A stretch of 63,958 bases of DNA, the filler included, from Babesia bigemina (taxonomy: Eukaryota): assembly GCF_000981445.1 (NCBI RefSeq). It is 8 parts of 8 records of this genome, joined end to end, with 100 filler letters (N's around TTAATTAATTAA, not from the genome) between each part and the next. Parts side by side here need not be neighbours in the genome. Positions count along the whole stretch, not along the records: positions 1 to 9,561 come from NW_012237247.1; 7 more parts are not named here. The stretch is one strand, 5' to 3'. Position numbers and translations under genes: made by a program. The notes beneath the pieces were generated by a model. The model saw only the letters and a list, made by a program, of their open reading frames with translations. It was not told the DNA's origin and made no database searches. Positions 1,432 through 61,280 of the stretch are shown in pieces (the first letter of the stretch is position 1; each line of letters starts with the position of its first letter).

Positions 1432-4400
1432 TGAGTCCATCGACTGGTTGATCCAGGTTAGGTATGGGAATGGTGATGGTGGTGATGGTCTTGACCAGTT
1501 GTCTCAAGCTTTGAAAAAGTTGATTGAGGAGGCTATTGAGAAGGCTGAAAAGTCCCTCCAAGCCGAAAAAAATAAACTTGAATGCCCTGTTAAGTATAAG
1601 GGAAATGAGTCCACTTGCCAGTATTATGATAGGCTGATTAAGGAAGCCAAGGACGCTAAAAATTCTGTTCATCCTAAAACTCAAATTCCAATAACTGAAC
1701 TTGAAAAACAAAAACAACGCTGCCAAAATAACCACACTTATTACCGTGACGGTTCCAAGCAGAAAGCGTATGATGAAATTACTGAGCGTCAGAATCAACT
1801 TAAAGATCTGAAAGATAAGCTTACGAAATTCACTGATTCACTTGATAAAACTAATAATGAAAATCTCCTTACTAACCTCTGCACCGGCCTCGAGACTTTC
1901 CTCGGCTTCAACGCTGACTCCAAAGGCTACGACGGCAGTGGGATAGTGTACTCTGACCTTGACAGGCTGTGCGACGGGGTTATGGGATTTTTGAGTGGTG
2001 TGCTTAAGGCGGTGAAAAACGAAAATGAAGTGACAACTTATGATAATTACATCAGTGGAGAGAATAATAAGCTTGAAAGTGTACTTAACACCTTAAATAC
2101 TAATATTGGCTCCGGGCGTGCTGGGCTTGCCGTGTCTGTCGACGCGGTGAAGAGGTGGTTGGAGGGGTATGGGAAAAATCTCCGTACTTCAACTTATCTC
2201 GTAACTCATGAATTAGATGGACTGAAGGAATTCATATCAGGTAAGCATATTTATGGTATTCATGACGTGCAGAATCTTCAAGACCAATTGAAGACGTGGA
2301 CCGAAGTGGTCAAGAAGATAGATGAGCACGTTAAACAGAACATAATTTCTAATGTTGATAAATTAGATTATACATTGAAACGTAGTGTAATGAACAAAAT
2401 TGATCCGCTGCGTGCATCAATTAACCAGTTGCTTGATTCGGCTAAGGATCCTGCCGTTATCCAGCAGGTCAAGAAGGTAGATACAGAGTTGCAGGCACAA
2501 GAGTTGAAGATTAAGGACTCGTTAGGTAACGAGGTATATAAACTTCGTGACAGTTTGAAACTTATGAAAGACACCAAGAATAGGCAGATTTGGTATTTAA
2601 GAAAGTCTGTTAACGATTTCATGAAAATGATTGAAGATAACCATTTTAACAATACCTATAAGGACAATATAATCAGTCAATTCAATGACATAAAACGTAA
2701 GGTCAATGATGTTTATGATACATTGTTTGCAAAGCAAGCGCAGCTGAAGGGGTTGGTGGAGCAGGCCCAGCAACATTTTGCGATTATTACGAATACAATT
2801 GGCATGGACGCGAAAATCGGCCACGAAAAAAGCATTTATCGTAATTGGGATAAGCTCAGGGAGACCATTAGTAATCTGGTGTTGCGTCAGATATATGGGC
2901 AGAATAAACATGAAGGTCTCAGAGGGATTCTCAGTGGAGTAGGAAATTATGCCGACGGCTTCAAATGGCAGACGTTTGAAAAAATAATGCAGCAGTTGTT
3001 GCAAGAAATTGTTGAAAAGGATTCCGTATACACCAATATTGATGCGTATGTTAGGTATAACAAGAATAATTTTACGGGTGATCTGGGAGTCGGTGAAAAG
3101 ACGGAAGCAATCCTAAAAAAATTGACACCAATCATCATACAGAAAGCGAAAGATGCTATAAAAACGATCAAACCGTCTCGTACACTTGGAACCAGGGGGA
3201 GTGTAGATGGAGAAATATCGGAAATCATAAAGTATCTTGGTAAACTAACTAGTGATGTTGAAAATATGGAAAGCAATATAACACAGGCAATTGAAGAGGA
3301 ATTGGCATCGGGTTCGGAATTAAGTTACGTAAATGCCCATCAATCCGACCACAAACATTATCTCAGTAGCGCTATTAAGGAAACATTGTCTATTATCTCT
3401 ATGAGTGTTAAATACGTGTGCGCACAATTGGAAAATTTCAAGAATGCTTCCCGTATTTCCAACTTAGATCAGGCCATCAAAGATGTGACTGCTATACCGG
3501 GAAAGCTCTCTGACGATCCGTCACTTGGTCAAAATATCACCAACGGATTGAAGACTGTAACGAATCATATCGAAGAACTTAACAAATTTTTAGTCAAATC
3601 AACAGGTGACAATTCCATGCACGAGGCGATCGATGAACTGAAATCAAAGATGGTCGACGAACTTGATAAGCTCAAAAAAGATAAGGAAGGCCATCAAGGG
3701 CAAAACGGTATCATAAACGAAAATAAAGATAAAGCTGACGAGCAAATGGAGAAATTGAAAACCGAGCTTAAAAAGAAGCTTAACAGCTTTGATATCAACG
3801 TCACACATGCCGATACATTAATCGAAGACTCTATTGATAGCATCGTAAGGGTTTTAGATGACGCTCATGGTGTTATCGAACGAACCGTCACTGACGCTTT
3901 TGAGAAAGTTAGACAATCCGTCCGCGCCCTCTTCGCCGAGTCCCACCGCGCCGACCTCTCTGCCCTCCGCTCCCTCGTCGACCAGCAGCTGAAGGCGGTG
4001 CAAGGCATAATCGCGAAGGACAGGGTGACGGGCGTGAAGGGGATGCTTAAGACGCTGAGTGGTGTCTCCGTCAATATGAAATCCTCACAGTATGCAGATC
4101 AGAATAATATGCTCATGAAGCTGCAAACGGCTGCATCTAAGAAAAACAGTTTGACAAAAGCTTATTTTGATGAATTGGTTCAACTCGTCAGAGCGTACTA
4201 CCGTTCTTACTTAATTTATGTGCACGATGATGCTGTTAGATTATCCGCCTCCCACCCTTCTCCCTCCACCGACTACCCCTCTCAACTCAAGGCCATTTTC
4301 GACAAACTCGTCGAACTTCTTAATCACCTCGAAAAAGACAAGTTATATAACTACGACCATAATTTCGTTGATTTACTCGCCTCCCTCAACTCTCTTGTTG

Positions 4401-6802
4401 ACTCCCTCTCTCCCTCCTTCACCTCCCCCTGCCCCCTCCTCGCCCCCCTCAAGGCCGGCCTCGCCAAATTCACCGAGCAACTCGGCCACGCGTACGTGAG
4501 TAGGTACTCGGGGCAAAAATACACTGCGTTAACTGAACGAAAACAGGTTCCCGATCCTAAAAAACCTGACAGCAAAGAAAAAATTGACGTTACCGATTTA
4601 ACCCCTGAGGGCCGGAACTGCGCCAAGGTCTGCCTGACGATAGTGGAGATGTTGACCAAAAATTTTGTGGAGTTGAAAGATGAATGTCAAGTCTACAAAA
4701 GTAAGCAAATTAACACGTATGATGATAATTTATTTGGCGAATGTTTTACGAAACGTGGTTTCACGGTGACATCCGACAAGGGTAGGCAGCACGGCGAGTT
4801 ACAAGACAAGAGTGACATGACCGGCGATGCAGTTTATAAGAAGATAACGGCAAAAGTTACAGGCGTCCAGATGTTAACTTTCCTAAAAACATGGAAAGAA
4901 GAACAACGCAGAAAACATCCTCACAGGCATCCAAATGGTAACATTCACCTCTTCGACGTTCTTGACTTCCTGCAAGGTTACGTCGTCACATATTACACAG
5001 TCCGTCACCTGGAACATATTCCATCAGCTAAAGCACCGCGTAATATTTATCAAATGCTGCAATGGCTGAGCGGCGTTCGATATTATCCAAGTCTTATTCC
5101 CCTGTTCCTTTGCTTCAAGGATCTGTTTCCTAGACGTAAAGAAGACGAAGGAAAGGATATCAAGGCTATATCACCCGCTAGCGTAAAGCTCTCAGCAACA
5201 ACTGAAATCACGTATGCGCACTTAGGAAGAAAAGTGTTTGTGAATGTCTGTTTACACGCCCATGATGTCTTGGTTGCCATCCTGGGTCACGGTCACGCAG
5301 GTGGGCGATACGCTGTCGATTTCAAAACCAACGAAGCAAAGTTGTTGTATCCTAGTAAGGCGAGTGACTGTTTTGATATGCTCGTAGACATTGCGTATCG
5401 CGTGCAACACCAGCTGTATTTCCTCTTCCAACAGTTTTACTTCGAATCATCGTACAGCTCATGGCGCGACTGCCTCTATGGCAGGGGAGTGGCCGGGTCA
5501 TCGTGGAAGTGCAATACCAAGCAGTGCCCTAACCACGACTGCAACCAAACGGCTAGGCAAACGGCCAACCAAATGGGTAACCAAACGTGTGACCAACACT
5601 GTGACCAATATCCCATGTGCGACCTAAAATCACCTTTGCAGTCATTCTTGGAGGATGGCTTACAAGGCTTCTTACCACATCAATTTACCAAGCCGGGCTG
5701 CAAACTGGAATGCACGGCAGCCAATCACAAAGCTATTCCCTGTAAGACTCCCATGGGCTTCGGTGATATAAGTAATATGGCATCGCATACGCAGAAGGGT
5801 ACGCATCTCAGAGATGTTTTAATAGATTTCTGCGGGAATTCTACTGCTCCCCTTACACTGATGTGCGCTTATTTCAACTGCCTGTTACAGCGTCCTCCTC
5901 AGAATCTGGGTGATATGTTCGCGTTCTATTACAACCTAATGAAAGAGTGGAGTAAGAATGAGACGCATAAAAGAAAGGCATTTGACGAAGCTGTCAGGAA
6001 GGCCAATTTCGAAAATCGAGGTACAACGCTCGAACTGGATGATGTCTTCAGTGCGCACAGTAACATTAGCAGCAACCACGCTGGGAGGCATCTGTCTAGC
6101 CTGGTGAACTGCGACGGTGATAGTGGATCAAATTGCGGCCGGTATTTGAAGCCCATCAGCACCGACGTATATACTATTTATTCATCGGAATATGCTGATA
6201 AGTATGTCTCATGGATCGTCTACCTCACTGAAACATTCTATGACTTGCTTAAGAAATTATACGACGAATGTAACGGCAACTGCGGTCCGAAGGGATCCAA
6301 CTGCCACAACAAATGCTGTGTCAAAGGGTGTCCATCCCTCGTAAAAGAGTCGAAAAATGTGACCCATGATGAAGGATGCACGTCCATTGTCCAGTGCAAG
6401 CATACACTTCCAACCTTGTGCAGATATGGATTCACGTTCTGGTACCAGACGAGGATCAACGGCGAACAAGGCATAGAAAAAAAACGTACCTGCAAGGATT
6501 TGTGCAACGTGCTAGAGAGAGTGCTGAGTGACAAAGAAGCTGACCAAGCTCCACTCGCTAAACTAATCTACGTCACAATTCCTAACTTCCTCTTCGAAAT
6601 CCGCGCCCCCTTCATCTGGCTCAATGTCGCCCTCTGGCTCCTCTCTTTGTTGTACCTCCTCCACATCATGGTCATCCGCCTAGACCTGCTCCACATCAAA
6701 TCGCATCTACATAGTCCCTCGAGTCATCGCATAGCTGCTCAATCACTACTCTCCGCTGCACGTGTTAACAAGCTTAACAGAGTGTTTTACCTGCAACCAT
6801 AA
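1400..6802 (+). CDS. ves1: VESA/ves1-like variant surface antigen, 5'-defective cassette (GTG at ORF start; first in-frame ATG at 1982)
   Basis: 1800 open codons; ESIDWLIQV, GIVYSDLDRLCDGVMGF, Cys-rich C-domain, TM helix FIWLNVALWLLSLLYLLHIMVI, tail ending RVFYLQP. Confidence 0.85.
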   Translation: MPCPPSPPLLTESIDWLIQVRYGNGDGGDGLDQLSQALKKLIEEAIEKAEKSLQAEKNKLECPVKYKGNESTCQYYDRLIKEAKDAKNSVHPKTQIPITELEKQKQRCQNNHTYYRDGSKQKAYDEITERQNQLKDLKDKLTKFTDSLDKTNNENLLTNLCTGLETFLGFNADSKGYDGSGIVYSDLDRLCDGVMGFLSGVLKAVKNENEVTTYDNYISGENNKLESVLNTLNTNIGSGRAGLAVSVDAVKRWLEGYGKNLRTSTYLVTHELDGLKEFISGKHIYGIHDVQNLQDQLKTWTEVVKKIDEHVKQNIISNVDKLDYTLKRSVMNKIDPLRASINQLLDSAKDPAVIQQVKKVDTELQAQELKIKDSLGNEVYKLRDSLKLMKDTKNRQIWYLRKSVNDFMKMIEDNHFNNTYKDNIISQFNDIKRKVNDVYDTLFAKQAQLKGLVEQAQQHFAIITNTIGMDAKIGHEKSIYRNWDKLRETISNLVLRQIYGQNKHEGLRGILSGVGNYADGFKWQTFEKIMQQLLQEIVEKDSVYTNIDAYVRYNKNNFTGDLGVGEKTEAILKKLTPIIIQKAKDAIKTIKPSRTLGTRGSVDGEISEIIKYLGKLTSDVENMESNITQAIEEELASGSELSYVNAHQSDHKHYLSSAIKETLSIISMSVKYVCAQLENFKNASRISNLDQAIKDVTAIPGKLSDDPSLGQNITNGLKTVTNHIEELNKFLVKSTGDNSMHEAIDELKSKMVDELDKLKKDKEGHQGQNGIINENKDKADEQMEKLKTELKKKLNSFDINVTHADTLIEDSIDSIVRVLDDAHGVIERTVTDAFEKVRQSVRALFAESHRADLSALRSLVDQQLKAVQGIIAKDRVTGVKGMLKTLSGVSVNMKSSQYADQNNMLMKLQTAASKKNSLTKAYFDELVQLVRAYYRSYLIYVHDDAVRLSASHPSPSTDYPSQLKAIFDKLVELLNHLEKDKLYNYDHNFVDLLASLNSLVDSLSPSFTSPCPLLAPLKAGLAKFTEQLGHAYVSRYSGQKYTALTERKQVPDPKKPDSKEKIDVTDLTPEGRNCAKVCLTIVEMLTKNFVELKDECQVYKSKQINTYDDNLFGECFTKRGFTVTSDKGRQHGELQDKSDMTGDAVYKKITAKVTGVQMLTFLKTWKEEQRRKHPHRHPNGNIHLFDVLDFLQGYVVTYYTVRHLEHIPSAKAPRNIYQMLQWLSGVRYYPSLIPLFLCFKDLFPRRKEDEGKDIKAISPASVKLSATTEITYAHLGRKVFVNVCLHAHDVLVAILGHGHAGGRYAVDFKTNEAKLLYPSKASDCFDMLVDIAYRVQHQLYFLFQQFYFESSYSSWRDCLYGRGVAGSSWKCNTKQCPNHDCNQTARQTANQMGNQTCDQHCDQYPMCDLKSPLQSFLEDGLQGFLPHQFTKPGCKLECTAANHKAIPCKTPMGFGDISNMASHTQKGTHLRDVLIDFCGNSTAPLTLMCAYFNCLLQRPPQNLGDMFAFYYNLMKEWSKNETHKRKAFDEAVRKANFENRGTTLELDDVFSAHSNISSNHAGRHLSSLVNCDGDSGSNCGRYLKPISTDVYTIYSSEYADKYVSWIVYLTETFYDLLKKLYDECNGNCGPKGSNCHNKCCVKGCPSLVKESKNVTHDEGCTSIVQCKHTLPTLCRYGFTFWYQTRINGEQGIEKKRTCKDLCNVLERVLSDKEADQAPLAKLIYVTIPNFLFEIRAPFIWLNVALWLLSLLYLLHIMVIRLDLLHIKSHLHSPSSHRIAAQSLLSAARVNKLNRVFYLQP

Positions 6803-6925
6803 TCGTACTCACGTGTTTACTACCTACACTCACCTAGCATCACCTACTCACCTAACTTATGAATTGTGCTTTAATCTGTTGCATCACTCATTAATCATTG
6901 TATGTGATTGTGTAACAGTTAACTA
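6803..6925 (+). promoter_or_regulatory. Conserved ~125-bp 3' element after cassette stop (putative 3' UTR)
   Basis: TCGTACTCACGTG...CACCTACTCACCTAAC...AGTTAACTAA follows all 7 cassette stops. Confidence 0.7.
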
Positions 6926-7146
6926 AAGTGGTGACCAAGATGCTGCCCAAAGTGTTGACCAATGTTATGACCAAAGTGCTGACCAAGGTGCTGCCCAAAG
7001 TGTTGACCAAGGTGCTGACCAATGTGCTGACCAAGGTGCTGCCCAAAGTGTTGACCAATCTGCTGACCAATGTGCTGACCAATGCCATGACCAAGCACCT
7101 GACCAATGTGCTGACCAATGCCATGACCAAGCACCTGACCAAGGTG
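6925..7146 (+). repeat. 12-bp tandem satellite (GTGCTGACCAAN)
   Basis: Direct reading. Confidence 0.95.
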
Positions 7147-7228
7147 ATGGTCACGGCAGCGATGACATGGTTACGGCAGCGATGGCATGGTCACGGCAGC
7201 GATGGCATGGTTACGGCAGCGATGACAG
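7147..7228 (+). repeat. 20-bp tandem satellite (GGTYACGGCAGCGATGACAT), ~4 units
   Basis: Direct reading. Confidence 0.93.
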
Positions 7229-7249
7229 TGGTGACTTAAGTTGCATTTA

Positions 7250-7400
7250 TTATCCACTCTACATCGCTCCTTTATCCACTCTACATCGCCCCTTAATCCA
7301 CTCTACATCGCTCCCTAACCCACTCTACATCGCCCCTTTACCCACTCTACATCGCTCCTTTATCCACTCTACATCGCTCCCTAATCCACTCCACATCGCT
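7250..7400 (+). repeat. ~22-bp satellite, short (~7 units)
   Basis: Direct reading. Confidence 0.95.
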
Positions 7401-7590
7401 CGAATTCCCTCGCCTTAATACCGCTATGACCTCTATAAACCATAGCAATAACTTGTGCCTTGTCACCCTTCACTTCCCTTCTTCCACCTCTTGCCACTGC
7501 CAAGTCCCATCATGTTCAGCCTAACTCCAAATCTCTCGAATTACTTCGTCTTATTAACGCTATGACCTTCTTGAACCATCATAATAACTT
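7397..7590 (+). promoter_or_regulatory. Cassette leader (class B, core motif duplicated; ATGs at 7426 and 7562)
   Basis: Two copies of CTCGAATT...GCTATGACC...ATAACTTG, 136 nt apart. Confidence 0.6.
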
Positions 7591-7635
7591 GTTGATACTG
7601 ACCATTCTCTTACTGACGCTGCTACTAAGAAAGCC

Positions 7636-9561
7636 TTGCAGGACATTGACTCCAAGTTGAAACAGGTTGAAAATCTTAAAAAGAGTCTTGAAGGATTGAC
7701 TGAAAATGACAATTGTAAAAACCTTCTAAACAATCTTTGTGACGGCCTCGAAAAATTCCTAGGCTTCCACCCTTCTTCCAAAGGCTACGATGGCCAGGGC
7801 ATCGTCTACTCTGACCTTGACAGGCTGTGTGACGGGGTGATGGGATTTTTGTTTGAAATAATTAGTGAAGTAAATAACAACGAAAATCTTAAGAAATACA
7901 ATACTGAATTACCTAAAACACTTAATAAAATTAAACAAGCGCTATATAATGGTAGAGAGAAATTCAACACCCATATGCCCCTTGTCAGTCAAGGTGTTGC
8001 GAGGTGGTTGAAAGAGGTGAATGAAAAACATCAAAGTGTGATTACACCTCTAGAACATTTACTACGCTTAGTCAATAATCACATGTCAATTGATATGAGT
8101 GCAATCATTGTTACAGAACAGTTGCATAATTGGCAAGGCTTTTCCAGTCTCTACGTTGAAAAAATTATAGAAGCTGAAAAAGCTCTACATAATGTTGACG
8201 AAAATTTAGAAATTAAATTGGCACCTAAACTAGACTTGATAAAACAGGTGGCACAAAATTTTTGGTCATCCGTTATTGACCGATCCGTGACAAATTCTGT
8301 AGAGACGCTGTACAATAAGTTAACCAGCATTCCGCAAACCCTCACTAAACGTATATCTGCTAAAACACAAACCGTGCAAAGCACTCTCAATGTAAAGTTT
8401 GATAAGATCGCAGCAAATATTGAGAATTTTAAAAAAATAAAAAACAGTCAAATTCAGTCAATCAACAGTGCTGTGTCGGCAGCCAATCAACACATTGTCG
8501 AACTGATTGGTGATTCCCAAAACGGTTTCGATACGAATTATAAGAATCAGATATCCAAAAGATTCACTGCTCTGCGGAATGAAATTGAACGTTTCGTAAA
8601 GAAAGATTCCGGTAACACGACTGAGCTTCTGAAGCAATTCGAAATGGTCACCAATGGCATCCGAGAGCTGCAAGTAAACGTTCAAGGGGATTTACAAAAG
8701 CTGAAAAATGACATTACTGCACTTGCCGACACAGTATACAGTGATGATCGTAACCCGCTTGTTAACGATGCGTTGACCCAGCTTAAAAACGACATGGAAA
8801 CACTTAGGAATACGACAGCAGCAATCACAGCCAAGTCTGACAGTTTGCAGCGTCAATATACAGAGTCGTGCAAGGAGACAATTGATATATTTGCGAATCA
8901 GTACGGCAAATTGAGAGAGTCCATTTACGGTCCGGGATCTAAGTCAGTCACCGACATCAAGAAGGGCTCCATCGCTCATCTTGTCACTGAACTTATTGAT
9001 GCTATTGGTGCCGTGGATGTCGGGATACTAGATAGCGCCGTCACCAAATTCCACGGTGATGTTACACAGAGGATAAAAGATGCGGCAGATAAGGCTGTTG
9101 AAAAGGCAGCTGATCAATTTAAAATGAAAGGTGACGGTGAAGCTCAGATAGACGTGACATCCATAATGGTTCTATTTGATGGCGCCAAAACGGCGCTTGA
9201 TCAAGCCGCTTCTTCGGTAAATGTACAACTTGAGGCTCTGAAAGAAGTGCCCGGCGTCGTCGAAGAATCTCGACAGGGTGCTGATACACTGATGGATAAG
9301 CTAAAAGGTGAGCTTGATGTGCTTCAATATCAAATTAAGGCAATAGAGGAGCCTGTGAACGCTGCCAATGCAGTCTTAGATGCTGCAATATCACAGCTAC
9401 CAACATCTTTACAAGATGCTCAAAGTACCGCCAACGTTACTATGTCCTTGCTCAGAAGTGATCTTCAAGCGACAACAAATAAAGCCTTCAACGACTTGGA
9501 AGAGCACGTCCAGAAAATGTTTGCCGAGCAAAAAAAAGCAGAGTTGCGTGCTGTCTACACA
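7636..9561 (+). CDS. ves1: ves1-like cassette, 5'-defective, 3' end lost in gap (frame open from 7588)
   Basis: NLCDGLEKFLGF and GIVYSDLDRLCDGVMGF motifs; N-terminal domain similar to 44061-49886. Confidence 0.8.
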
Positions 9562-19283: not shown

Positions 19284-19560
19284 GCGATGTAGAGTGGGTA
19301 AGGGGCGATGTAGAGTGGGTAAGGGGCGATGTAGAGTGGGTAAAGGGGCGATGTAGAGTGGGTTAGGGAGCGATGTGGAGTGGATAAAGGGGCGATGTAG
19401 AGTGGGTTAGGGAGCGATTACAGGAGGTGAAGGAGCGATGTAGAGTGGGTTAAGGGGCGATGTAGAGTGGATAAAGGGGCGATGTGGAGTGGGTTAAGGG
19501 CGATGTGGAGTGGATAAAGGAGCGATGTGGAGTGGGTTAAGGGGCGATGTGCAGTGGATT
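19283..19560 (-). repeat. ~22-bp satellite
   Basis: Direct reading. Confidence 0.95.
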
Positions 19561-19583
19561 ATAATCACCACTTAAGTCACCAC

Positions 19584-19664
19584 TGTCATCGCTGCCGTAA
19601 CCATGTCATCGCTGCCGTGACCATGTCACCGCTGCCGTGACCATGTCATCGCTGCCGTAACCAT
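19584..19664 (-). repeat. 20-bp satellite
   Basis: Direct reading. Confidence 0.93.
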
Positions 19665-19667
19665 CAA

Positions 19668-19873
19668 CTTGGTCATGGCATTGGTCACCACTTTGGTCAT
19701 GGCATTGGACAACACATTGGTCAACACTTTTGTCATGGCATTGGTCAGCACTTTGGTCAGCACCTTGGTCAGCACTTTGGTCAGCACATTGGTCAGCACC
19801 TTGGTCAGCACCTTGGTCAGCACGTTGGTCAGCACATTGGTCAGCACTTTGGTCAGCACATTGGTCACCACTT
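19668..19873 (-). repeat. 12-bp satellite
   Basis: Direct reading. Confidence 0.95.
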
Positions 19874-19996
19874 TAGTTAACTATTACACAATCACATACA
19901 ACGGTTAATGAGTGATACAACAGATTAAACAACAATGCATAAGTTAGGTGAGTAGGTGAGGCTAGGTGAGTGTAGACAGTAAACACGTGAGTACGA
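19874..19996 (-). promoter_or_regulatory. Conserved 3' element
   Basis: Homologous to 6803-6925. Confidence 0.65.
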
Positions 19997-25525: not shown

Positions 25526-26043
25526 GATGTAGAGTGGATTAGGGAGCGATGTAGAGTGGGTAAAGGAGCGATGTAGAGTGGGTAAAGGGGCGATGCAGAG
25601 TGGATAAGGAGCGATGTAAGGTGGATAAAGGAGCGATGTAGAGTGGGTTAAGGAGCGATGTGGAGTGGGTTAAGGGGCGATGTAAGGTGGGTTAGGGAGC
25701 GATGTAGAGTGGATAAAGGGGCGATGTGGAGTGGGTAAAGGGGCGATGTGGAGTGGGTTAGGGAGCGATGAAGAGTGGATAAAGGGGCGATGTAGAGTGG
25801 GTTAGGGAGCGATGAAGAGTGGATAAAGGGGCGATGTGGAGTGGGTAAAGGGGCGATGTGGAGTGGGTTAGGGAGCGATGAAGAGTGGATAAAGGGGCGA
25901 TGTGGAGTGGGTTAAGGGGCGATGTAGAGTGGATAAAGGAGCGATGTAGAGTGGATAAAGGGGCGATGTAGAGTGGATAAAGGGGCGATGTAGAGTGGGT
26001 AAAGGGGCGATGTAGAGTGGGTTAGGGAGCGATGTAGAGTGGA
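25526..26043 (-). repeat. ~22-bp satellite
   Basis: Direct reading. Confidence 0.96.
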
Positions 26044-26067
26044 TGATAATCACCACTTAAGTCACTA

Positions 26068-26205
26068 CTGTCATCGCTGCCGAGACCATGTCATCGCTGC
26101 CGTAACCATGTCATCGCTGCCGTGACCATGTCATCGCTGCCGTGACCATGTCATCGCTGCCGTGACCATGTCATCGCTGCCGTGACCATGTCACCGCTGC
26201 CGTGA
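26068..26205 (-). repeat. 20-bp satellite
   Basis: Direct reading. Confidence 0.94.
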
Positions 26206-26211
26206 ACTCAA

Positions 26212-26801
26212 CTTGGTCAGCACTTTGGTCAGCACATTGGTCAGCACTTTGGTCATGTCCTTGGTCAGCACATTGGTCAACACTTTGGGCACCACTCTGG
26301 TCATGGCATTGGTCAGCACTTTGGTCATGTCCTTGGTCAACACGTTGGTCAGCACTTTGGTCAGCACTTTGGTCAGCACATTGGTCTTGGCATTGGTCAC
26401 CACCTTGGTCACCACTTTGGTCAGCACATTGGTCAACACGTTGGTCAGCACATTGGTCACCACTTTGGTTATGACATTGGTCAGCACTTTGGTCATGGCA
26501 TTGGTCACCACTTTGGGCAGCATCTTGGTCAACACGTTGGTCGTGGCATTGTTCATGGCATTGGTCAGCACTTTGGTCAGCACTTTGGTCAGCACATTGG
26601 TCAGCACCTTGGTCAGCACCTTGGTCACCACTTTGGTCACCACGTTGGTCATGGCATTGGTCAGCACCTTGGTCATGGCATTGGTCAGCACGTTGGTCAG
26701 CACATTGGTCACCACTTTGGTCAACACCTTGGTCAGCACGTTGGTCATGGCTTTGGTCAACACGTTGGTCAGCACTTTGGTCAGCACATTGGTCACCACT
26801 T
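26212..26801 (-). repeat. 12-bp satellite
   Basis: Direct reading. Confidence 0.96.
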
Positions 26802-26924
26802 TAGTTAACTATTACACAATCACATACAACGGTTAATGAGTGATACAACAGATTAAACAACAATGCATAAGTTAGGTGAGTAGGTGAGGCTAGGTGAGTG
26901 TAGACAGTAAACACGTGAGTACGA
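26802..26924 (-). promoter_or_regulatory. Conserved 3' element
   Basis: Reads identical to 19874-19996. Confidence 0.65.
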
Positions 26925-51008: not shown

Positions 51009-53476
51009 AACGTATAATTTACGAGGTCAATGAGCACGTAAGTATGAGCGGTAGATTGCACAACGGTCAAGTAATGAATGCACAGGCAGACAGGGTGACA
51101 CAGCTGGGTAGTGGTCAAATGTGAAAAATGATGAGCGTATAAATAGGAAGTGTAATATATCCACAAAAGTGTATTTTCATCTATAAGTCACATAACAATT
51201 TTAATACTAACATGAGTAGTTATTAAGCATGTTACACCATACGTTTCCAATTGATGTACATTTGAATAGTCAACACAATCACCTATGCTTTTACTTAACT
51301 ATTTACATACAACCTTATTCCACACGCTAACAATATAATTCAGAATGTTTTTGCACAGTAACTACACCGCTAACTCACCAGCCGCTCCCTGCTGCGCTGA
51401 TGCTCCCGTGCTGGGCGAATTGCTGTCCGACGGCATGTTGCGATTTGCGAAACGATGGTTGACTAAACAGCATCTTAATGACACATAAACAGCATTGTAA
51501 AATACGCAGCACATCTGTCTGTCACGTCTAAGAGATGAGCCATTAGGTCGAGGCACGCAGCGGAGCTGCCTAGTGCTGGGTAGGTGGTGCACGGAAAACT
51601 GTATTAATTTGTGCGCTACATGCCTTTCGTATCACGTATGTGACGCTGTTATTACGTGGTATTCGCTGCGTGAGTGCCGGTCGCTGCATGTCTTCTGGCG
51701 GACAGGTAGCTGACGTGTACGGCGTATTATCGCCGACATGATTACGCGATGAATAGCATTCTCATGTCTTCATATGTATGGAATGATGTTATAATAATCG
51801 CTATGTCAACTAACCTTGTCACTTAGCTGTTGTCCGTAGTGGTCGTGGCCACGGCGTTACATGTTGCGTTTTCCACTGCTCACGTTTCACCTAGCGGAAT
51901 GATTTGTTTTGTCACGCATCCCTAATCACGTCACTAATCACATCTCAGACGCATAATTACTTGACTAGCCGCCTATAATTTTCCTGGACGACGTGGCCCG
52001 TTTCCTCTTCGTCCTAGGCTACCAGGGGTGTCGGCGCTGTGCTAGACCTGGCGGAGGGTATCCGCCGTGCATTTGGAATAACGTCGTTGATGCGATAATA
52101 TGTCATTTGATGATGTGATTGACAGTTTCTCAGCTGTATAACAATTTTGCCTTATCAGAGCAAATCTCACTGCTAGCGATGCAACGTTGATTAAGCTGGA
52201 ATGTGCGTGAAAACCGCTTCATCAATAATGCGTTGTTGCTAGTCGAGCGCGGTACGCGCATGTGACGGTATACACATGGTAGCGATTATGTAGCCAAAGA
52301 GACAAGAGACGCCGCGATTGGCGTCAGATGAGCTAGTAACCAAACACAAGGCAACGTCAGTTGCCCGTGTGACTGAAATAAGACGAATGGACGAAATGGG
52401 AATACACAAATCAGCGTCGCAACGCTGAGTAACAATATCACGAGCAGATTCACGTGATAGAATGTTAACACGTAAAAATAGCGATAAGCAATTAGACTAG
52501 CGCACAATTTAACGCGGTGGCACATGTGATAATTAACAGTGTACTTCTGGTCACGAAGCAGCTGCGATAAGCTGCCGTGATAAACAAGCAGACTAGCAGC
52601 GAGTTAAGCACGTCGTAGAGCGGAAGGCGTAAGCCGGGGGAATGGGAAAGTAGAGAGGGAGGGTATCAGTCAGCTATCAATTCAGCCGTTTACTTAGCTA
52701 TTTGCTTATCTTCTTGGTTACCTCTTTGGGTACCTTCTTGGTCACCACGTTACTCAGCCGCTTGTTCACGGCTTCGTTGCTCCTCTCACCCTTATCGGTG
52801 ATCACATATTCGTAGGCATTACTGCCGCTCTCGTAGCTCATCTAGCGAACACTTTCGTTGCTCTTCACTGCTCCTGATGAAGGAACGGGCGCCTTCAGGA
52901 ACGGTTGGGAAGGGCCGGGAACTGGGCGAATGGTTGTAGCTCCGATTTGGAGGCAACCCAGCTTTTGAGGCTGGGTGAGAGTTGAGTGTTTGAGTAAAGA
53001 GTGCGTATGAATTTGATTTGAATAGAAATTAGCAGCGTAGTCATATGTAACGTAGGTGCGCATCGTCACTTATTCGAACGTTTTACCCCATCCCCGTGGG
53101 AGACCGGCCGGCGCATGGTGATGCGATATGGAATCCTCAGTGCGATGTCGTTGTTGACTGGAAGGCTGGGCAAGAGCCGTGAGCAGGAGCGAATGGCGCC
53201 GGAAGGGAGAGCGAAGGCCGAGATTCCGCTGAGGTAGGTGGTCGAGGTAGCGATATAAACGGTTTTCCTTGTTAGGTGAGCGAGGAAGGCTGCGAAATTG
53301 GTGAGTTTTTGCGTGATTCCATAACGTAGTGTGACTGTGAGCGAGATTCCATCGAGATTCCATGTGCATGAGTTTGAGTTGAGTTATGTAATGTAGCTGT
53401 GGCATGCGTGTTGAGTGCGGGTGGTCGTGATTAGTTTGAAACGTGAGTGAAAGTGCGAGGTAAGTGAGCCTTGAAA
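51009..53476 (+). promoter_or_regulatory. Unique, satellite-free upstream region of the full-length ves gene (putative promoter/5' UTR)
   Basis: Longest non-ves, non-repeat DNA in the window; function inferred from position. Confidence 0.4.
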
Positions 53477-56400
53477 ATGAGGCATGTCCCTAAGAAATTA
53501 ACGGACTGTCCGGAGAATCTCCGTGAGTCCATAGACTGGTTGATCCAGGTTAGGTATGGGAATGGTGGAGATGGTCTTACCAAGTTGTCAAAAGCTTTGA
53601 AAAAGTTGATTGAGGAAGCTATAAATAACGCTACTAAGTCCCTTACAACCGAAAAATCTAAACTTGAATGCCCCTTCAAATACTCTGATAAGGAGACTTA
53701 CTGTCAGTACTACCAGAGACTGCATGACGAGGCTGAGAAAAAATTCAAAGAATCCAAAAAAACCGTTGAAAATATCCCAGATAATCATAGTATTAACTTC
53801 TATAAAACATGTCTAGAAGATTGTAAAAATGCTCACAAAAAACATCCTCCATCTCCTGCCTTGAAGTCTGTTGAAGAGAAGATTGTCCAGCTTGGTGAAT
53901 TGGCTGGTAAGCTTGGAGGATTTGTTGGTGAGAGTGAGAGTGTTAAGAAAGCCGTTGTGAAAGCTATTAAAGCTTGTTTCGACACTAATCCACACCTTAA
54001 AAAAGACCTAAATGATGTTTACTCTTCTTATGTTACTAAGCTTTCTGAGTCTGTCAAGTCTGATGGCCAGGCTGATGACAACCAGAAAATTAGTGAGCTT
54101 AGTGAAGCAGTTAAGAAAGAAATTACTCTAATTACTCAACGTATTAATAGCCTTAATAACCCTCTTAATCCCTCTCCTTCTTCCCCCTCTGCCTCTGCTG
54201 AGTCAGCCAAATTGCAGTCCAAGTTGGAGGCTTTGAAGAAAGTGGAGAAGCTTTGTGGATTTTATGAGAATTCTAATAATCAACAAAATGAGCCTAAAAA
54301 TCTCTTAGATAATTTATGTGACGGCCTTCAGACTTTCCTCGGCTTCAACTCTGCTTCCAAAGGCTACGATGGCAGTGGCATTGTGTACTCTGACTTGGAT
54401 AGGCTGAGTGACGGGGTGATGGCGTTTTTCTATGGTGTTCTCAGTAACATCAAAGAGCATTTAGGGCAGCATAAAAACATTTTAGATAATGCAATTAGCA
54501 TTCTTAACACCAATAAACACCTTGGTAAAAAAGGTTTTAATGCTGCGATTGGACAGGTGGTTGAAGGGGTGCGGGGGTATAATGATGCTGTCATGAAGTC
54601 TAATAATAACGTTAAAAATGTAGTCGAAGAATTGTACAATTACATAAAAAAAGACGCAGCGTTTGAAAACGAATTTGTTAAAATTCAAGTTGATAATGTG
54701 ACTGGGAAGCCAGATGACGCTGAGGTAAGAAAGGCAGAGAACTTAGTGACTCAATGCCTAAAAAATGCCAATAAATTTAACGAAGCTTTAGATGTCAGTA
54801 CGAAAAAAGAAATTAAAAAATCAATCGACGACTTAAATCCTAAGTTACGCGATAATGTAAATAACGTTCGTGAGTCCGTTAAAATTGAAACTGAGCGTCT
54901 TACAGAGTTCTCGTCGAAAGAAAAATCAGACCTTCGAGAGACAACGGAATACATCAGTGAGCTGTTGAAAAACCTGAAAGTGAACGTCGATTGCAAAATT
55001 GACGCGCACATTAAAGACCTCATTAGGAGGATTCGCGAGAAAGTCCAGACTATTTTGGATGAGCTGAACAAAATCAACAAAGACTTTTGGCAGTACGTGA
55101 ACGAGTTGGGAACGTGGATAAAGGATGCCGAGCCGTTCGTGGATGACGCGTTGAGGAAGATTGAGATCATTTTGCGGCAAGTGAGTTCGGACGGCGCCGA
55201 TCAGAGGCCCAGACTTATCAACGAGACAGCGGAATTGATTAGAATGCAGGCTCAGATAATTCACGGTGACGTGGAATTGGCCAGAGAAAGAATGGAAAAG
55301 TTAGTGCCGGAGGCAACGAAAAAAGTTGAGCAGTTGACTACGTGGAAGAATGCGGGCACGACGGCCGTTGAGAGGGCGAAACAAAAGTGTGAGCAGATTG
55401 GTGGGATGGTTGAGACTGAAAATGGTACAAAAGATAAGATTCATGGAATCGCTAACGATATGAAAGATAAGGCTGAGAATCTTAGAAAGGCGGCGCATAA
55501 GGTTAAGAGTGGTATTGACGGTTGGGTGCAGCAGGCTACGCGGAAAATTGGGGAGTTGGAGGAGTGGATTAAAAAAGAGCTTTTTAAAGTAAAAAACAAC
55601 ATTCAGGTATCCATTAAAGATTTTGTCACTAATCAGGTTAAGTCTGTAGTCAACGCAGCAAAGCACGTTACGGGTCCGGTGACACTTAACACAAATGGTG
55701 ACACTAGGCCCGGAATCACGCAGCTTATTAATGAAGTTGGACAAACAACGCAGTTCGGAAAATTATTTAAACTGCTTGAACGATCTGCAGATGACAAAGA
55801 TAACATTGCATTCTCCATTGAATACGCCATGTATGCTCTCAATAAATTAAACAGCAAGACGTCGATCGAATTGGATGACAAAAATCCGGTTGTGAAAGCT
55901 TTGACGGACGATCTCGTCGGCCTACTGAATGTGCATTTGCATGATGCAATTACGAGGCGTGCAACTACAAACTCACAGACGGAGTCACAAATTAACTTGA
56001 ATGATACGATGAGTGGATACAACCGAGAAAAAGGCAAAGTAACAATGGAGCTAACCGGTCTCAAACGTAACGTTGAAACCAATCTAACCGCTGAAGAAAG
56101 TGTCAAACAAACGATCGAAGATAACAATAGCTTCACCGGCCCCTTCACCAAAATCGAGCAACAACTCCAAAAGATCGCAGGGCTGGTTGACAGCGACAAA
56201 CCTACGCCGGGATTAGTTGATCCTAAAACTGGCGTCAAAAACTACCTGGATGATATCACAACCCTGCTTGGCAAAGCTCCCGTCGTACTCACCTCCGATA
56301 TAAAAGGCGACCACAATGGTGTCCAAGGCCTCGAGAAGATCAAGGAAGAAATCGACGGCGCGCTCGGAGGTATTCAAACTAAAGTAACGGATGCTCTACA

Positions 56401-59400
56401 AGGCGTCAACCAAGCATACGCCGATCTGCAATCCCACTCCTATACCATCACTTCCAGACTCACCGAGCTGTGTTCCGCCATCAAGTCAGCTGCCGAGCTG
56501 GATCCTGATAGTGCGAAAAAAAAATTAACTGAGTTGAAGGAGAAGTATTTCGAGGAACAAACGAAAACTAGCAAACATGCGGACAAAAGCATCAAAAAGA
56601 TTCGCGACCAACTGAAAGCGCTCCAAAACTTTCTGCAGAGTGGTCCCATCACCAAGGCCGACAGCGTGATTGCATTCCTTTCTACTGCCGAAAAAAGCTT
56701 CAAGAAGGAACTGACGGAAGAGATCGACAAGGACATCAAACAGGTCACCGAGAAACTAATCACCCATTCGCGCAAGCAATACGTCACGTCTCTTATGGAC
56801 TTGCTGACCACTTTCGCCGACAGAGTTTCCTCTGAGCTGGCGGAGCTGCCAACCCAAATCGGCGCGGACCTGGAACAGGGGCACAAAAAATTCATGAACT
56901 TATTTGAAACTAACATCGTTACTGAAGTTAAGAAGATCCTTCCTATCAATACCGATCACAGAGGCAAGAATGAGTTCCCGCTGAACAAGGCGGCAAGCAT
57001 ATTTAAACAGGGTTTAACAAGTTTCTTCAAAACTTTGAAAGAGCTACCAGACTTCAAGTCCGACTTCAACTTTATTCGACCTCCATACAGCACGCTGGTA
57101 AAATTGCTTACCGGAATCATTAGTTCCCTTCACTTCAACGACGACTTCATCGTGAACTTGGATGCACTGAGAGACCAGCTGAGTAAGTTTCATCCTGCCA
57201 AGTTCGGGGAGGGACAGAATCATTTCATTCTAGAAGCGCTGAGGAAAGCGTTTTCTAATTATGCTGAGGAGCTGTCCAAGGCCTACATCTCCGCCTACGA
57301 CGGCGCTGGCAATATCAACTGGGATCAAGAAAACAACCCGGAGACCACATACTGCGCTAAGATATTCTTGACCGCTTTTTCCACAATTCACGATGCTGTG
57401 CATGACTTGAGAATAAATTGCAATAGTCTGAAGGGACATCAAATTCACTCGACCTCTGATCTCGGCAGGTTGTTCCTACGGCACGGCTTCAGAGTATCAC
57501 ACGGCGACAAACAGCACTGGGAGCTGCAGAACAAGCAGATCATTAACGGTGAATACGTCCTTAAGAGAATCAGTTTCAGGGTCGATGGTGCGAAAGAGAA
57601 CGAGCATCTCAAGGAGTGTGAATCGAATGAACGAAAGACGAACTATTTTTTTAATCTTTTCGATATTCTCACCTGCCTTCTGTATCACATTGAGAAGTAC
57701 AACGAGGTTTGCCATATTGGCACTTTTGATGCAAAGAGACAGCCATGTTCAGTATATGAGATGCTGATTTGGCTCAGCGGCCTGACTCACAACCGCGTGC
57801 AGTCCGCCATGGTCGGACAAACGTTCCTTGAGCTACTGAAAGATCCAGCGAAGGAGGCTAGAGAGGCGCAACAAGAAGAGGAAGTGGACGAACCTATAGT
57901 CCTAGAAGTGGACCCAGCATCTATATCCCTCGAAGCATACCCGAAGAACATAGAATTTGTCAGACTTGACGCGACACTGACACGTATATGTTCAAAAGCG
58001 TACGATCTTATTTGCACAATCGTTGGACCGGGAGACGAATACACTACCTACGGGTGTGACTACTCCAACAATTCGTTCAAGCTGAAGTATCCCAGTGACC
58101 CTGCCGCTTGCTTCGACATGCTCGTCGATATACTTCGCCGACTACTTCCGCAGCTCAGATATCTTTTTAACCGCTGTTATGTCGATGCCGAAAACCACGG
58201 TTGGCGCGACTGCGAATACGGTCGAACCACACGTACGACCAAATGGCCGTGCAAGGAGCACTCAAAGAGCAAACCAACGTGCCAGGCAACGTGTCAACCA
58301 AATGACCAACCAAAGTGCCAACCAACTTCCCCCCTAATGAGCTATTTGAACGATTGCTTGCCTGGCCACTTGCCTCATCAATTGAGCTCTATTGGTTGCA
58401 AATACGAATGTTTGACATGCCCTTCCACTTCGAAGTTTGGAATGCCTTGTATGACGCCCTTGGGATTTAGGGCGTTCTCCGGATCGACTAAAACGGGTCG
58501 TGATATATGTGAAATACTCCGGCAATTTTTCGGTACTGGCCGACTCTCATCTTTCCTTTGCCTTGTTCCTACGCCGCCGAAAACTCTACCAGAGCACTTC
58601 AACTTCGCTCTATCGCTCGTACGAGAATGGGAAGCTATCGCTACACGCTGGTATGAAAAGCCTATCGAACAATCGATTGAGACAGTTTCTATCGGTCTCT
58701 TTAGAAATCCCCGTGAGCTGACAGATGCACTTCGTTATGTTTATGGCAGCAGCCAAAATAACCATGGCGCTTTTCACCCAAATCCCTCGTCGGCTGATGT
58801 GTCAAGTTTGTCGATGCGGAAGGTATGTACTGGTATAGAGGAGCACTGTGCTCCATATATCGAAACTCTTTGTTCGGATTCATACGCTTACTTACCTTAC
58901 AAGCATTCCGACACGTACTTGTCCTGGGCTGTATATCTCCCATGGACATTCTGGCAATTACTTAACAATTTGTATAACGCTTTCTGTAATATTAATTGCC
59001 AAGACTGGGGCTGTCGTGAATGTTTGAAAGGCGACAAGTGTAAACGTGGACAACATGGTCTTTTCAAATTGGTTGAAAAAACCAAGCAACCTCACTGCCA
59101 GTGTTCGTCTATCGTCAGTTGCAATGGTGTGTCTCCAACTTTGTATCAATATGGATTTAGTTTCGGTGATGTATCTATGTTGAATAACAATAGCAGCAGG
59201 AAAACCTGTTCCGATTTCTGCACTCAATTAAAGAGAGTGCTTGACTGCAGTTATTTCAAGACATTGTTTACAAAATGCGACGAATTCATCTTCACCATCA
59301 GAGAGCCGTTTATATGGCTTAACGTCGCGCTCTGGTCACTATCTCTCTTCTACCTCATCTGCGTCATGGTTGGCAGACTGGATGTGCTGCACATCCGGTC

Positions 59401-59500: not shown

Positions 59501-59667
59501 TTGTATTCACACTTCTAATTCACAGCAACTCACGTAACAACTCACCTACTCACCTAACAAACAAACGTAGTCTAATGTCTCGAATTACTCTAGCGGCAAC
59601 CTGTGAAATAAATAGCAGCTAAATTAGGAGATGACTAAACGACAATGCAACGTGTTAACCTAGCAGT

Positions 59668-59785
59668 CAGGCAAAGTGATAAGCTAGCGCCCAGGCAAAG
59701 TGCTGAGCTAGCAACCAGGCAAAGTGCTAAGCTAGCACGCAGGCAAAGTGCTAAGGTAGCACACAAGCTAAGTGCTAAGGTAGCG
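59668..59785 (+). repeat. 24-bp tandem repeat x5 (CAGGCAAAGTGCTAAGCTAGCACG)
   Basis: Direct reading; 8-aa periodicity in ORF 59635-59817. Confidence 0.85.
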
Positions 59786-60292
59786 GATGAACCGTAATTT
59801 GGTGGGTGTTGTAGCACGTCGGTTGGTTGTTGCGTTGAGTTACGCGTTGACTGTGAGAGGTGTCTGCGTTGCCCATTGAGTCAGTGTCACGTGAGGCTAG
59901 GTGATTTGTAGCTAACGTAGGCGGCCGTGAGGGCCGCGGCGGGTGACCCAAGTCGTGTGTTGCGAGTCACTGGCAGGGTGGCGTAATCCGCGTTGGCCTG
60001 GTTAGGTAGCGTTTATAGGCGACAATGTAGCGATCGTTAATATCACATTTAGGCACGTAGCCGACACGCTCCGCCAGCATGGCGTCTTTACCGCGGCTCG
60101 TAGCACGGTGCTGCTGCACTGTGGGAGTTGAACGCACGGGGTTCGCTGCAATTTTAACCGTGTTGCGAATAGTGAATAATTTAGATTGGCGGTTGGTGCT
60201 GATGACATGCGTCGCGTCAGGGCAGCTGTGGTATCCCGGGCAGCGTGGGTGTCGGAGCCAGGGCTGGGGGGATACAGGGGTGAGGGTGAGTG

Positions 60293-60990
60293 TTGATGAG
60301 GGGACTGGGAGCGGCAGTGGTAGTGTTGCAGTTGGTGAGTGCTGCTTGAGTGATTGATGTTCGCAGGCTGAGGGGAGTGGGAGCGGCAGTGGTACGTGTT
60401 GCAGTTGGTGAGTGCTGCTTGAGTGACTGATATGTCTGCAGGTTGAGGGGACTGGGAGCGGCAGTGGTACGTGTTGCAGTTGGTGAGTGCTGCTTGAGTG
60501 ACTGATATGTCTGCAGGTTGAGGGGACTGGGAGCGGCAGTGGAACGTGTTGCAGTTGGTGAGTGCTTGCATAGGTGATTGATATGTTTGCAGGTTGAGTG
60601 ACTGGGAGCGACAGTGGTGCGTGTCGCAGTTGGTGAGTGCTTGCTTGAGTGATTGATATGTCTGCAGGTTGAGGGGACTGGGAGCGGCAGTGGTAGTGTT
60701 GCAGTTGGTGAGTGCTGCTTAGGTTATTGATATGTTTGCAGGTTGAGGGGACTGGGAGCGGCAGTGGTACGTGTTGCAGTTGGTGAGTGCTGCTTAGGTG
60801 AGTGATATGTTCGCAGGTTGAGGGGACTGGGAGCGGCAGTGGTACGTGTTGCAGTTGGTGAGTGCGTTGCTTGAGTGATTGATATATTCGCCGGTTGAGG
60901 GGACTGGGAGCGGCAGTGGTAGTGTTGCAGTTGGTGAGTGCTTGCTAGGTGATTGATATGCTTGCAGGTTGAGGGGAGTGGGCGCGGCAG
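60293..60990 (+). repeat. ~75-bp tandem repeat, 9-10 units
   Basis: GACTGGGAGCGGCAGTGG recurs at e.g. 60450 and 60525; 25-aa periodicity in ORF 60002-60571. Confidence 0.93.
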
Positions 60991-61260: not shown

Positions 61261-61280
61261 TGACACAAGTGGTGATTATT

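What the first reader, a model, noticed from the sequence alone, without database searches (positions are those of the whole stretch)
6925..7400. The middle 20-mer satellite is complementary to both neighbouring satellites
On the ves sense strand the 20-mer reads TGGTCACGGC-AGCGATG-ACA. Its first half is the reverse complement of the upstream 12-mer cores GTGACCA and GCCATGACCA (9/10 match). Its second half AGCGATG is the exact reverse complement of CATCGCT in the downstream 22-mer. Junctions are stereotyped (GACCAAGTTGATGKTYACGG and AGTGGTGATTATTATCCACT). Inference: single-stranded DNA or RNA from the spacer could fold in two alternative ways, or one factor could bind inverted sites, acting as a boundary, terminator, silencing trigger or recombination initiator.
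Basis: partly seen in the sequence, partly recalled or inferred. Interest (0 to 1): 0.7.

Follow-up and report, generated by a model that had tools for sequence, protein, structure and literature searches.

The report
Spacers between headless Babesia antigen genes

Summary
The invariant complementary cores are 6 nt (TGGTCA/TGACCA, GCGATG/CATCGC; p=0.027 and 0.018, jointly 1/4000). The spacer folds no better than dinucleotide shuffles (43/100), though better than unit-permuted controls; sense-strand helices are at most 7 bp. The 12-mer-pairing half holds the 20-mer's two most variable positions, one spacer has no 12-mer, and no Rfam family matches. The 20-to-22 junction is a degenerate 30-nt inverted copy of the 22-mer, so the complementarity is likely a fold-back relic, not a switch.

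The context matters more. The genes are Babesia bigemina-type ves1b. All 9 readable 22-mer arrays are followed by one shared leader, and all 8 readable genes behind it lack the canonical N-terminus, yet six complete bodies have no stop in 1,553-1,961 codons. One complete gene has a unique, repeat-free upstream region that also assembles as long low-depth contigs in another DNA run. Best reading: tandem donor cassettes whose spacers are recombination homology, like trypanosome VSG or Pneumocystis msg archives. Against it: published proteomics assigns abundant peptides to cassette-type genes, so expression in place is not excluded, and no usable RNA data were found.

The parts
1439..6802 (+). 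Upstream ves1b-like cassette, lacks the canonical start, body open for 1,787 codons
6803..6924 (+). Conserved 3' flank (122 nt), mean 91% identical among 7 copies
6925..7146 (+). 12-mer array (consensus GTGCTGACCAAT); resembles the 12-bp coding Cys/Gln repeat of ves1b
7147..7232 (+). 20-mer array, 4 units; 6-nt cores inverted relative to both neighbours
7214..7273 (+). 20-to-22 junction: degenerate inverted copy of about 1.5 22-mer units; predicted hairpin, same fold at 7 of 7 junctions
7250..7401 (+). 22-mer array, C-rich on the sense strand; G-rich strand carries predicted G-quadruplex motifs
7398..7620 (+). Shared leader (83-nt core, 86% identical among 9 copies; first ~65 nt repeated once here) in place of the normal gene start
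7636..9561 (+). Downstream 5'-truncated ves1b-like cassette, open to the contig end; two near-identical copies exist on other contigs (P0109, P0121)
19284..19874 (-). Second complete 12/20/22 spacer
25526..26802 (-). Third complete 12/20/22 spacer
51009..53476 (+). Unique upstream region of the only complete gene; no 22-mer, 20-mer or leader words; candidate promoter (inferred)
53477..59500 (+). Only complete ves1b-like gene in the window (MRHVPKKLTDCPENLRESIDW..., 2,007 aa); candidate head or expression-site gene (inferred)
59501..61735 (+). Variant spacer: different 3' flank, 24-mer, 75-mer, then the usual 20-mer and 22-mer; natural control without a 12-mer neighbour

Best explanation
The 12/20/22-mer block is the conserved spacer between head-to-tail Babesia ves1b copies that lack their normal start, and it likely works as shared recombination homology for an archive of donor cassettes, while the 20-mer's complementarity to its neighbours is likely a relic of old fold-back duplications rather than a working switch. 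Shown: spacer order and orientation; a common leader after every readable 22-mer array; loss of the canonical N-terminus at three depths (about codons 17, 128-139 and 271-283 of the complete gene); open cassette bodies; flanks 86-91% identical while bodies are a patchwork at 25-45% amino-acid identity; one complete gene with a unique upstream region. Inferred: spacers let whole cassettes be copied or swapped between arrays; cassette sequence reaches a promoter-bearing head gene by conversion through conserved coding blocks and the 3' end; the G-rich 22-mer strand may promote breaks; the 20-mer arose when inverted copies of its neighbours, made by template switching at array boundaries, were amplified by slippage.
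For: 9 of 9 readable 22-mer arrays are followed by the leader; 8 of 8 readable genes behind it lack M..PKKLTDCPENLRE, and in 0 of 8 does a leader ATG run uninterrupted into the body without splicing. Six complete bodies have 0 stops; neutral decay at only 2% gives about 24 stops and left all six open in 0 of 200 runs, while leaders differ by 14%. 45 of 46 B. bigemina hits on small contigs lack the canonical start versus 5 of 20 on chromosomes, one of those 5 being nearly complete. Truncated and complete genes interleave in a C-terminal tree (at least 8-9 label changes forced by well-supported branches; quick tree). Both MRHVPKK-type heads share more high-identity patches with truncated copies (8/40 and 5/26 windows at 80% or more, mean 56%) than the 16 other complete genes do (0-4 of 34-45, mean 39-50%). 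In DNA run X1 the head's upstream is covered by 612- and 667-nt contigs at depth 5-6, one bridging into the start, while the leader sums to about 500-700 and 22-mer letters are attached to it at two places (summed contig depth is not a copy number). The 20-to-22 junction aligns to the reverse complement of the 22-mer over 15-37 nt at 7 of 7 junctions. PMC4066756 Table 2: ves1b orthology 0-3.3% at conserved positions, 37-44% unassembled.
Against: The head gene has no 22-mer within the 2.47 kb upstream that is held, so the array cannot be the 5' conversion boundary as 70-bp repeats are for VSG. The head is not strictly unique: a second MRHVPKK-type protein, P0082, has a different body, and 15 other complete B. 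bigemina genes exist among the hits. Published proteomics assigns peptides to cassette-type genes, including the most abundant VESA1-sized row I saw (BBBOND_0300010 = P0113 by accession order and mass; iBAQ 11,090 versus 8,525 for the named dominant ves1b); this fits conversion into a head gene but equally fits expression in place. About 12 of the 45 truncated models start at the leader ATG, and I could not see whether they are unspliced. The B. bigemina protein hits are not independent of the window (P0024 equals gene 44061-49886 over its last 330 aa; P0122 is a piece of gene 7636). The fold-back origin rests on one ancestral event per junction. No recombination was observed.
Confidence: 0.55

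Rival explanations
1. The truncated copies are real short-form ves1b genes expressed in place (leader ATG with splicing, or a downstream Met). The spacer is then terminator plus promoter or insulator, and the shared hexamer CATCGC/GCGATG is an inverted pair of binding sites for one factor.
For: Bodies are open; peptides map to many cassette-type genes in PMC4066756 supplement file 3; leader ATG kept in 8 of 9 copies; about 12 annotated models start there; the 22-mer hexamer is 98.5-99.8% invariant per position.
Against: 0 of 8 readable window copies give an uninterrupted frame from a leader ATG; truncation depth varies by about 270 codons; the proteomics used another strain and few unique peptides, so it cannot place expression; most other positions of the units are as invariant as the hexamer.
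Confidence: 0.22
2. One reading: single-stranded RNA or DNA of the spacer is a selected two-way switch (20-mer pairs with the 12-mer or with the 22-mer) acting as terminator, silencing trigger or break initiator.
For: Beats unit-permuted and flipped controls; with DNA parameters 12:20 and 20:22 pairs are more balanced in the longer spacers; the commonest variants TGGTTA and GCGGTG stay G-U compatible on the sense strand; the 20-to-22 hairpin is predicted at 7 of 7 junctions, 3 of them at 3/200 shuffles or better.
Against: No better than dinucleotide shuffles; short helices and a 59% versus 11% imbalance; 26 of 118 units carry a pair-breaking change at TGG[T] and half of the 22-mers lose the seventh pair; 12:20 hairpin at 2 of 7 junctions; one spacer has no 12-mer neighbour; complementary variants GCGGTG and CACCGC co-occur no more than chance (2 of 7 adjoining pairs, 5 of 7 eligible); no Rfam match; two B. 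ovata gene models read through a spacer with a single C-rich repeat and no 20-mer motif.
Confidence: 0.08
3. The spacer has no job: it is a hitch-hiking junction homogenised by unequal exchange in subtelomeric arrays, and any selection acts only on the coding bodies.
For: Array lengths vary widely (20-mer 4-31 units, 22-mer 7 to over 60); the 12-mer resembles a coding minisatellite; the B. ovata models suggest another repeat can fill the same place.
Against: A C-rich array directly upstream of a truncated copy appears in both species' models, and the 20-mer, 22-mer, leader module is kept behind two unrelated 3' flanks. Homogenisation by unequal exchange is itself the recombination role.
Confidence: 0.12
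4. Assembly artefact.
For: The window is a string of short contigs joined by artificial N44-TTAATTAATTAA-N44 linkers, and most break inside the arrays.
Against: The finding's spacer lies wholly inside one contig (1-9561); units differ one from another; run X1 holds leader contigs with attached 22-mer letters.
Confidence: 0.02

Closest known systems
Babesia bigemina ves1b family (PMC4066756)
   Same: Homologous genes: hit P0016 is BBBOND_0300560, labelled BbigVes1b in supplement file 3; conserved C-terminal domain; near-zero positional orthology.
   Different: The sections I read describe ves1b loci, LAT-like pairs and recombination but no tandem 5'-truncated cassettes, leader or intergenic minisatellites; cassette-type genes are 'hypothetical' or 'undefined' in the supplement rows I saw.
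Trypanosoma brucei silent VSG arrays with 70-bp repeats (10.1101/2023.05.11.540369, passages)
   Same: Subtelomeric arrays of silent antigen genes, each preceded by short repeat arrays and followed by a conserved 3' sequence.
   Different: There the expression site also carries the repeats, which bound conversion; here the complete gene has none in 2.47 kb upstream. Here the copies lack the N-terminus, and the spacer has three repeat types.
Pneumocystis msg-I / UCS / CRJE system (PMC10622565, passages)
   Same: Many open but start-less genes in tandem near chromosome ends; a single-copy upstream region with promoter; conserved flanks; non-B DNA proposed at the junction.
   Different: One fixed 33-bp junction there versus three truncation depths here; Babesia also has many other complete ves1b genes; annotated arrays here point away from scaffold ends, whereas msg genes point toward telomeres (recalled).
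Babesia bovis ves1alpha/ves1beta LAT (PMC4066756 introduction, PMC9047050 passages)
   Same: Same gene superfamily; segmental gene conversion; predicted G-quadruplex motifs enriched near ves loci.
   Different: Divergent gene pairs with bidirectional promoters, not head-to-tail start-less cassettes with minisatellite spacers.
Giardia pseudo-VSP linear arrays (earlier finding e1-638004, unchecked)
   Same: Junction repeat between silent 5'-truncated antigen copies.
   Different: Unrelated genes and repeat; that array type is already described.

Membership tests
BbigVes1b genes | Homology to annotated ves1b with conserved VESA1 C-terminal domain | tested here: met
   206 hits; the 119 named ones among the 120 listed are B. 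bigemina or B. ovata; P0016 labelled BbigVes1b; C-terminal motif in all complete bodies
BbigVes1b genes | Canonical N-terminus (M..PKKLTDCPENLRE[SA]IDW), as seen in 31 of 120 hits | tested here: not met
   Absent in 8 of 8 readable genes behind a 22-mer; present only at 53477
VSG-type silent cassette with 70-bp repeats | Repeat array upstream of each silent gene and conserved 3' sequence | tested here: met
   (analogy only, no sequence homology claimed)
VSG-type silent cassette with 70-bp repeats | Same repeats upstream of the gene in the expression site | tested here: not met
   No 22-mer, 20-mer or leader words in 51009-53490; the contig ends there
VSG-type silent cassette with 70-bp repeats | Donors are not transcribed in place | tested here: inconclusive
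   No RNA holder on record; RNA-guess runs gave 0-1 contigs; peptides map to cassette-type genes
Pneumocystis UCS/CRJE system | Start-less genes with open frames | tested here: met
Pneumocystis UCS/CRJE system | Single-copy upstream promoter region | tested here: inconclusive
   Unique in the window and low-depth long contigs in X1, but a second head-type protein and 15 other complete genes exist; promoter activity untested
Pneumocystis UCS/CRJE system | One fixed junction element at the start of every donor and in the expression site | tested here: not met
   Three junction depths
Structured RNA switch or known ncRNA | Folding stability above composition-matched shuffles, covariation, family match | tested here: not met
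Babesia telomeric repeat (TTTAGGG)n (PMC10463595) | Tandem TTTAGGG units | tested here: not met
   CCCTAAA/TTTAGGG occurs 5 times in the window against 114 CCCTAA/TTAGGG
G-quadruplex recombination initiator | G4 formed in vivo and needed for switching | not testable with these tools
   Only predicted: 69 of 81 relaxed motifs lie in 22-mer arrays, which cover 15% of the window (my count)

The most novel reading that the evidence does not exclude
Babesia bigemina, unlike B. bovis, keeps dozens of start-less ves1b cassettes in tandem subtelomeric arrays capped by a common leader and a three-part minisatellite, and feeds them by recombination into one or two promoter-bearing head genes: an expression-site-plus-archive system convergent with trypanosome VSG and Pneumocystis msg, with the fold-back hairpin and G-rich 22-mer marking the break-prone boundary.
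Probability: 0.4. Interest if true: 0.8.

Novelty: new variant of a known kind. Interest (0 to 1): 0.55.

Why it matters
How B. bigemina switches its red-cell surface antigen has been assumed by analogy to B. bovis. If most ves1b copies are start-less donors bounded by conserved repeats, the question becomes directly testable: primers in the head's upstream region, the leader and the 3' flank separate the expressed from the archived repertoire. It would also explain why ves1b loci are unassembled and non-orthologous between strains, and why many gene models in this family begin with out-of-frame leader sequence. The multi-copy repeats are also candidate species-specific diagnostic targets. The complementarity itself would matter little beyond recording how the repeats arose.

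Tried and rejected
No whole genome was held, so genome-wide order could not be counted. Pfam gave only sub-threshold coiled-coil hits for 10 proteins. Rfam: 0 matches at E<=1 over 6700-7700. Run search: no RNA holder listed; 20 of 24 rows hold part of the spacer, none half or more, 13 studies; this says nothing on expression. Three RNA-guess runs gave 0-1 contigs on either stretch: uninformative. Idea that all three satellites are one family: rejected, 12-mer versus inverted 22-mer is no better than permuted controls (p=0.84; 288/300). 20-mer as a self-palindrome: rejected (p=0.69; 0% self-pairing). 22-mer as telomere repeat: rejected. Leader core as a coding relic: no hit better than E=0.35 against 31 complete proteins; only the part from SCHCP onward aligns (E about 1e-4 to 1e-2). 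Proteomics as proof of silence: rejected; the 18 rows labelled BbigVes1b are chromosomal, but no small-contig ids appear in the table at all and cassette-type genes do appear under other labels. The first variant count used a best-match regex that under-counted variants and was replaced. One search printed a wrong head ATG; the right position, 53477, is. The tree is the quick tree (110 rows; proteins without a canonical C-terminus and P0001 left out). Earlier-findings look-ups by place and sequence were empty.

Full report
Setting. The window is a string of short contigs joined by seven artificial N44-TTAATTAATTAA-N44 linkers; most contigs end inside a repeat array. The finding lies wholly inside the first contig (1-9561). 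The large ORFs belong to a family whose named hits are B. bigemina or B. ovata (206 hits, 120 listed). One hit, BBBOND_0300560, is labelled BbigVes1b in supplement file 3 of PMC4066756. Some hits are the window's own genes, so the B. bigemina protein set is not independent evidence.

Observation. Three arrays lie at 6925-7146, 7147-7232 and 7250-7401. Order and orientation repeat: 7 of 7 readable 20-mer arrays are followed by a 22-mer, 7 of 8 preceded by a 12-mer, 1 of 8 by a 75-mer. Position-weight profiles give 6-nt inverted cores, p=0.027 and 0.018 among nine pairings, jointly 1/4000. The two most variable positions of the 20-mer lie in the half that should pair with the 12-mer.

Folding. 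The spacer folds like a random sequence of its dinucleotide content (RNA -126.4 kcal/mol, 43/100 shuffles as good; antisense DNA 59/100). Against controls that keep the repeat structure but permute the 20-mer it does better (0-3 of 30 in 12 tests on three spacers, the longer arrays capped at 230 nt; 3-10 of 200 pairwise). So cross-array pairing is real in silico, but this control restates the sequence match. In the RNA ensemble 59% of 20-mer bases pair with the 22-mer and 11% with the 12-mer; sense helices are at most 7 bp. With DNA parameters the two pairings are more balanced in longer spacers, so two folds are possible on paper. No compensatory pattern was found, Rfam has no match, and one spacer keeps the 20-mer without a 12-mer neighbour.

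Origin of the complementarity. The last 20-mer unit plus the linker aligns to the reverse complement of the adjoining 22-mers over 15-37 nt at all 7 junctions and folds into the same hairpin (z -0.6 to -3.2): the mark of an old inverted duplication. The 12-to-20 junction forms a hairpin in only 2 of 7 cases, although the 20-mer's first half matches a common 12-mer variant at 10 of 12 positions in reverse. The 12-mer has its own likely source: it resembles the 12-bp coding Cys/Gln repeat about 430 aa before the C-terminus (local scores 28-51 versus a null maximum of 28 in 300; both are low-complexity, so part of this is composition). I infer two fold-backs at array boundaries, then slippage amplification.

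What the spacer sits in. Every readable 22-mer array (9 of 9) is followed by the same leader; all 8 readable genes behind it lack the canonical start and join the family's coding sequence at about codon 17 (2 copies), 128-139 (2) or 271-283 (4) of the complete gene. Leader ATGs are out of frame, followed by a stop, or lost in all 8; splicing was not tested. Six complete bodies have no stop, which neutral decay at even 2% would not allow (0/200). Flanks are 91% and leaders 86% identical, the last 300 coding bases 75%, and bodies 25-45% at amino-acid level with isolated 90-100% patches whose best partner keeps changing. The only complete gene (53477-59500) has 2.47 kb of unique upstream DNA without 22-mer, 20-mer or leader words and is itself followed by a spacer. 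In DNA run X1 that upstream is covered by long contigs at depth 5-6, the leader sums to 500-700, and 22-mer letters are attached to the leader; the tool warns that such depth is no copy number. Among annotated B. bigemina hits, 45 of 46 on small contigs and 5 of 20 on chromosomes lack the exact canonical start. Coordinates in supplement file 3 show tandem 118-236 kDa genes at the first or last loci of annotated scaffolds, five ends, all pointing inward; four with sequence in hand (P0034, P0078, P0113, P0119) are truncated types. Two B. ovata models (P0030, P0055) read from a 3' flank through a C-rich 4-residue repeat into a truncated gene, with no 12-mer or 20-mer translation motif; gene models may skip DNA, so this is a hint.

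Counter-evidence. Peptides were assigned to many cassette-type genes in another strain, including the highest VESA1-sized row I saw (BBBOND_0300010, 3 quantified peptides). Cassette sequence is therefore made into protein; whether in place or after conversion is open. The head gene lacks upstream repeats, a second head-type protein exists (P0082), and 15 other complete genes are among the hits. No RNA evidence was obtainable.

Mechanism. Most likely (0.55): spacers, leader and 3' flank are the only long homology shared by otherwise divergent cassettes and let them be copied and exchanged; cassette sequence enters a head gene through conserved coding blocks; predicted G4 motifs on the 22-mer's G-rich strand (69 of 81 relaxed motifs in 15% of the window; my count) may favour breaks, as proposed for B. 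bovis ves loci (PMC9047050). I put about 0.7 on the complementarity having no job of its own. Rivals: expression in place with the spacer as promoter or insulator (0.22), no function (0.12), folding switch (0.08), artefact (0.02).

Literature. Six Babesia-directed full-text searches listed no paper describing these spacers or start-less ves1b arrays; the library lacks most subscription journals. Seen: PMC4066756 abstract, passages, sections 22 (part 1 of 2), 23, 24, 26, one passage of supplement file 2 and rows of file 3; its file 1 could not be searched and figures are not held, so the arrays may be shown there. PMC10463595, PMC5660447, PMC6630957, PMC9047050, PMC10622565 and 10.1101/2023.05.11.540369: passages only. 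The orientation of Pneumocystis msg genes toward telomeres is recalled.

Verdict. The architecture around it is a new variant of a known kind of antigen archive, unreported in my searches and directly testable: interest 0.55.

Noticed in passing
window 9562-9661, 18951-19050, 27658-27757, 35229-35328, 42954-43053, 50909-51008, 61736-61835: Artificial contig linkers; neighbours across them are not real, and ORFs 7636-9609 and 61780-63162 end in a linker.
   Followed up: yes
window 53477-59500 and 51009-53476: Only complete ves1b-like gene, with unique upstream DNA conserved at about 85-89% in run X1; candidate expression site. P0082 has the same start with a different body.
   Followed up: partly
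window 5542-5610, 33308-33369, 40252-40308, 45329-45396, 58263-58325: Coding 12-bp Cys/Gln minisatellite related to the spacer 12-mer, read in two different frames (x-D/N-Q-x or C-Q-P-x) in different copies.
   Followed up: partly
window 52684-52772 (minus strand): Degenerate inverted 12-mer-like repeat about 720 nt upstream of the complete gene; depth doubles there in run X1.
   Followed up: no
window 59501-60990: Second spacer type: different 3' flank, 24-mer, about 500 nt unique DNA and a G-rich 75-mer containing a 20-mer-like core; follows the alternative C-terminus IPSSHKITAQ..., which several annotated truncated copies share.
   Followed up: partly
window 7398-7620, 17618-17836, 19066-19285, 49929-50124: The first ~65 nt of the leader are duplicated in four copies, suggesting repeated capping of already truncated genes.
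   Followed up: partly
window 7636-9561; P0109, P0121, P0122: The cassette downstream of the finding has near-identical copies on two other contigs (99.8% over 574 aa; 97.2% over 1,379 aa between the other two): recent duplication or assembly redundancy.
   Followed up: partly
P0030, P0055 (B. ovata models): Gene models that read through an intergenic C-rich repeat; probably mis-annotated, and a sign that B. ovata has analogous arrays with a different repeat.
   Followed up: partly
P0113 (BBBOND_0300010): Model begins with leader and out-of-frame sequence yet carries the highest VESA1-sized abundance row seen in PMC4066756 supplement file 3, labelled 'undefined product'.
   Followed up: partly
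runs X3, X7, X18, X19, X20: RNA-guess libraries hold 15-32% of the spacer's words; three were laid on flanking stretches and gave almost nothing, so satellite RNA versus trace DNA is unresolved.
   Followed up: partly
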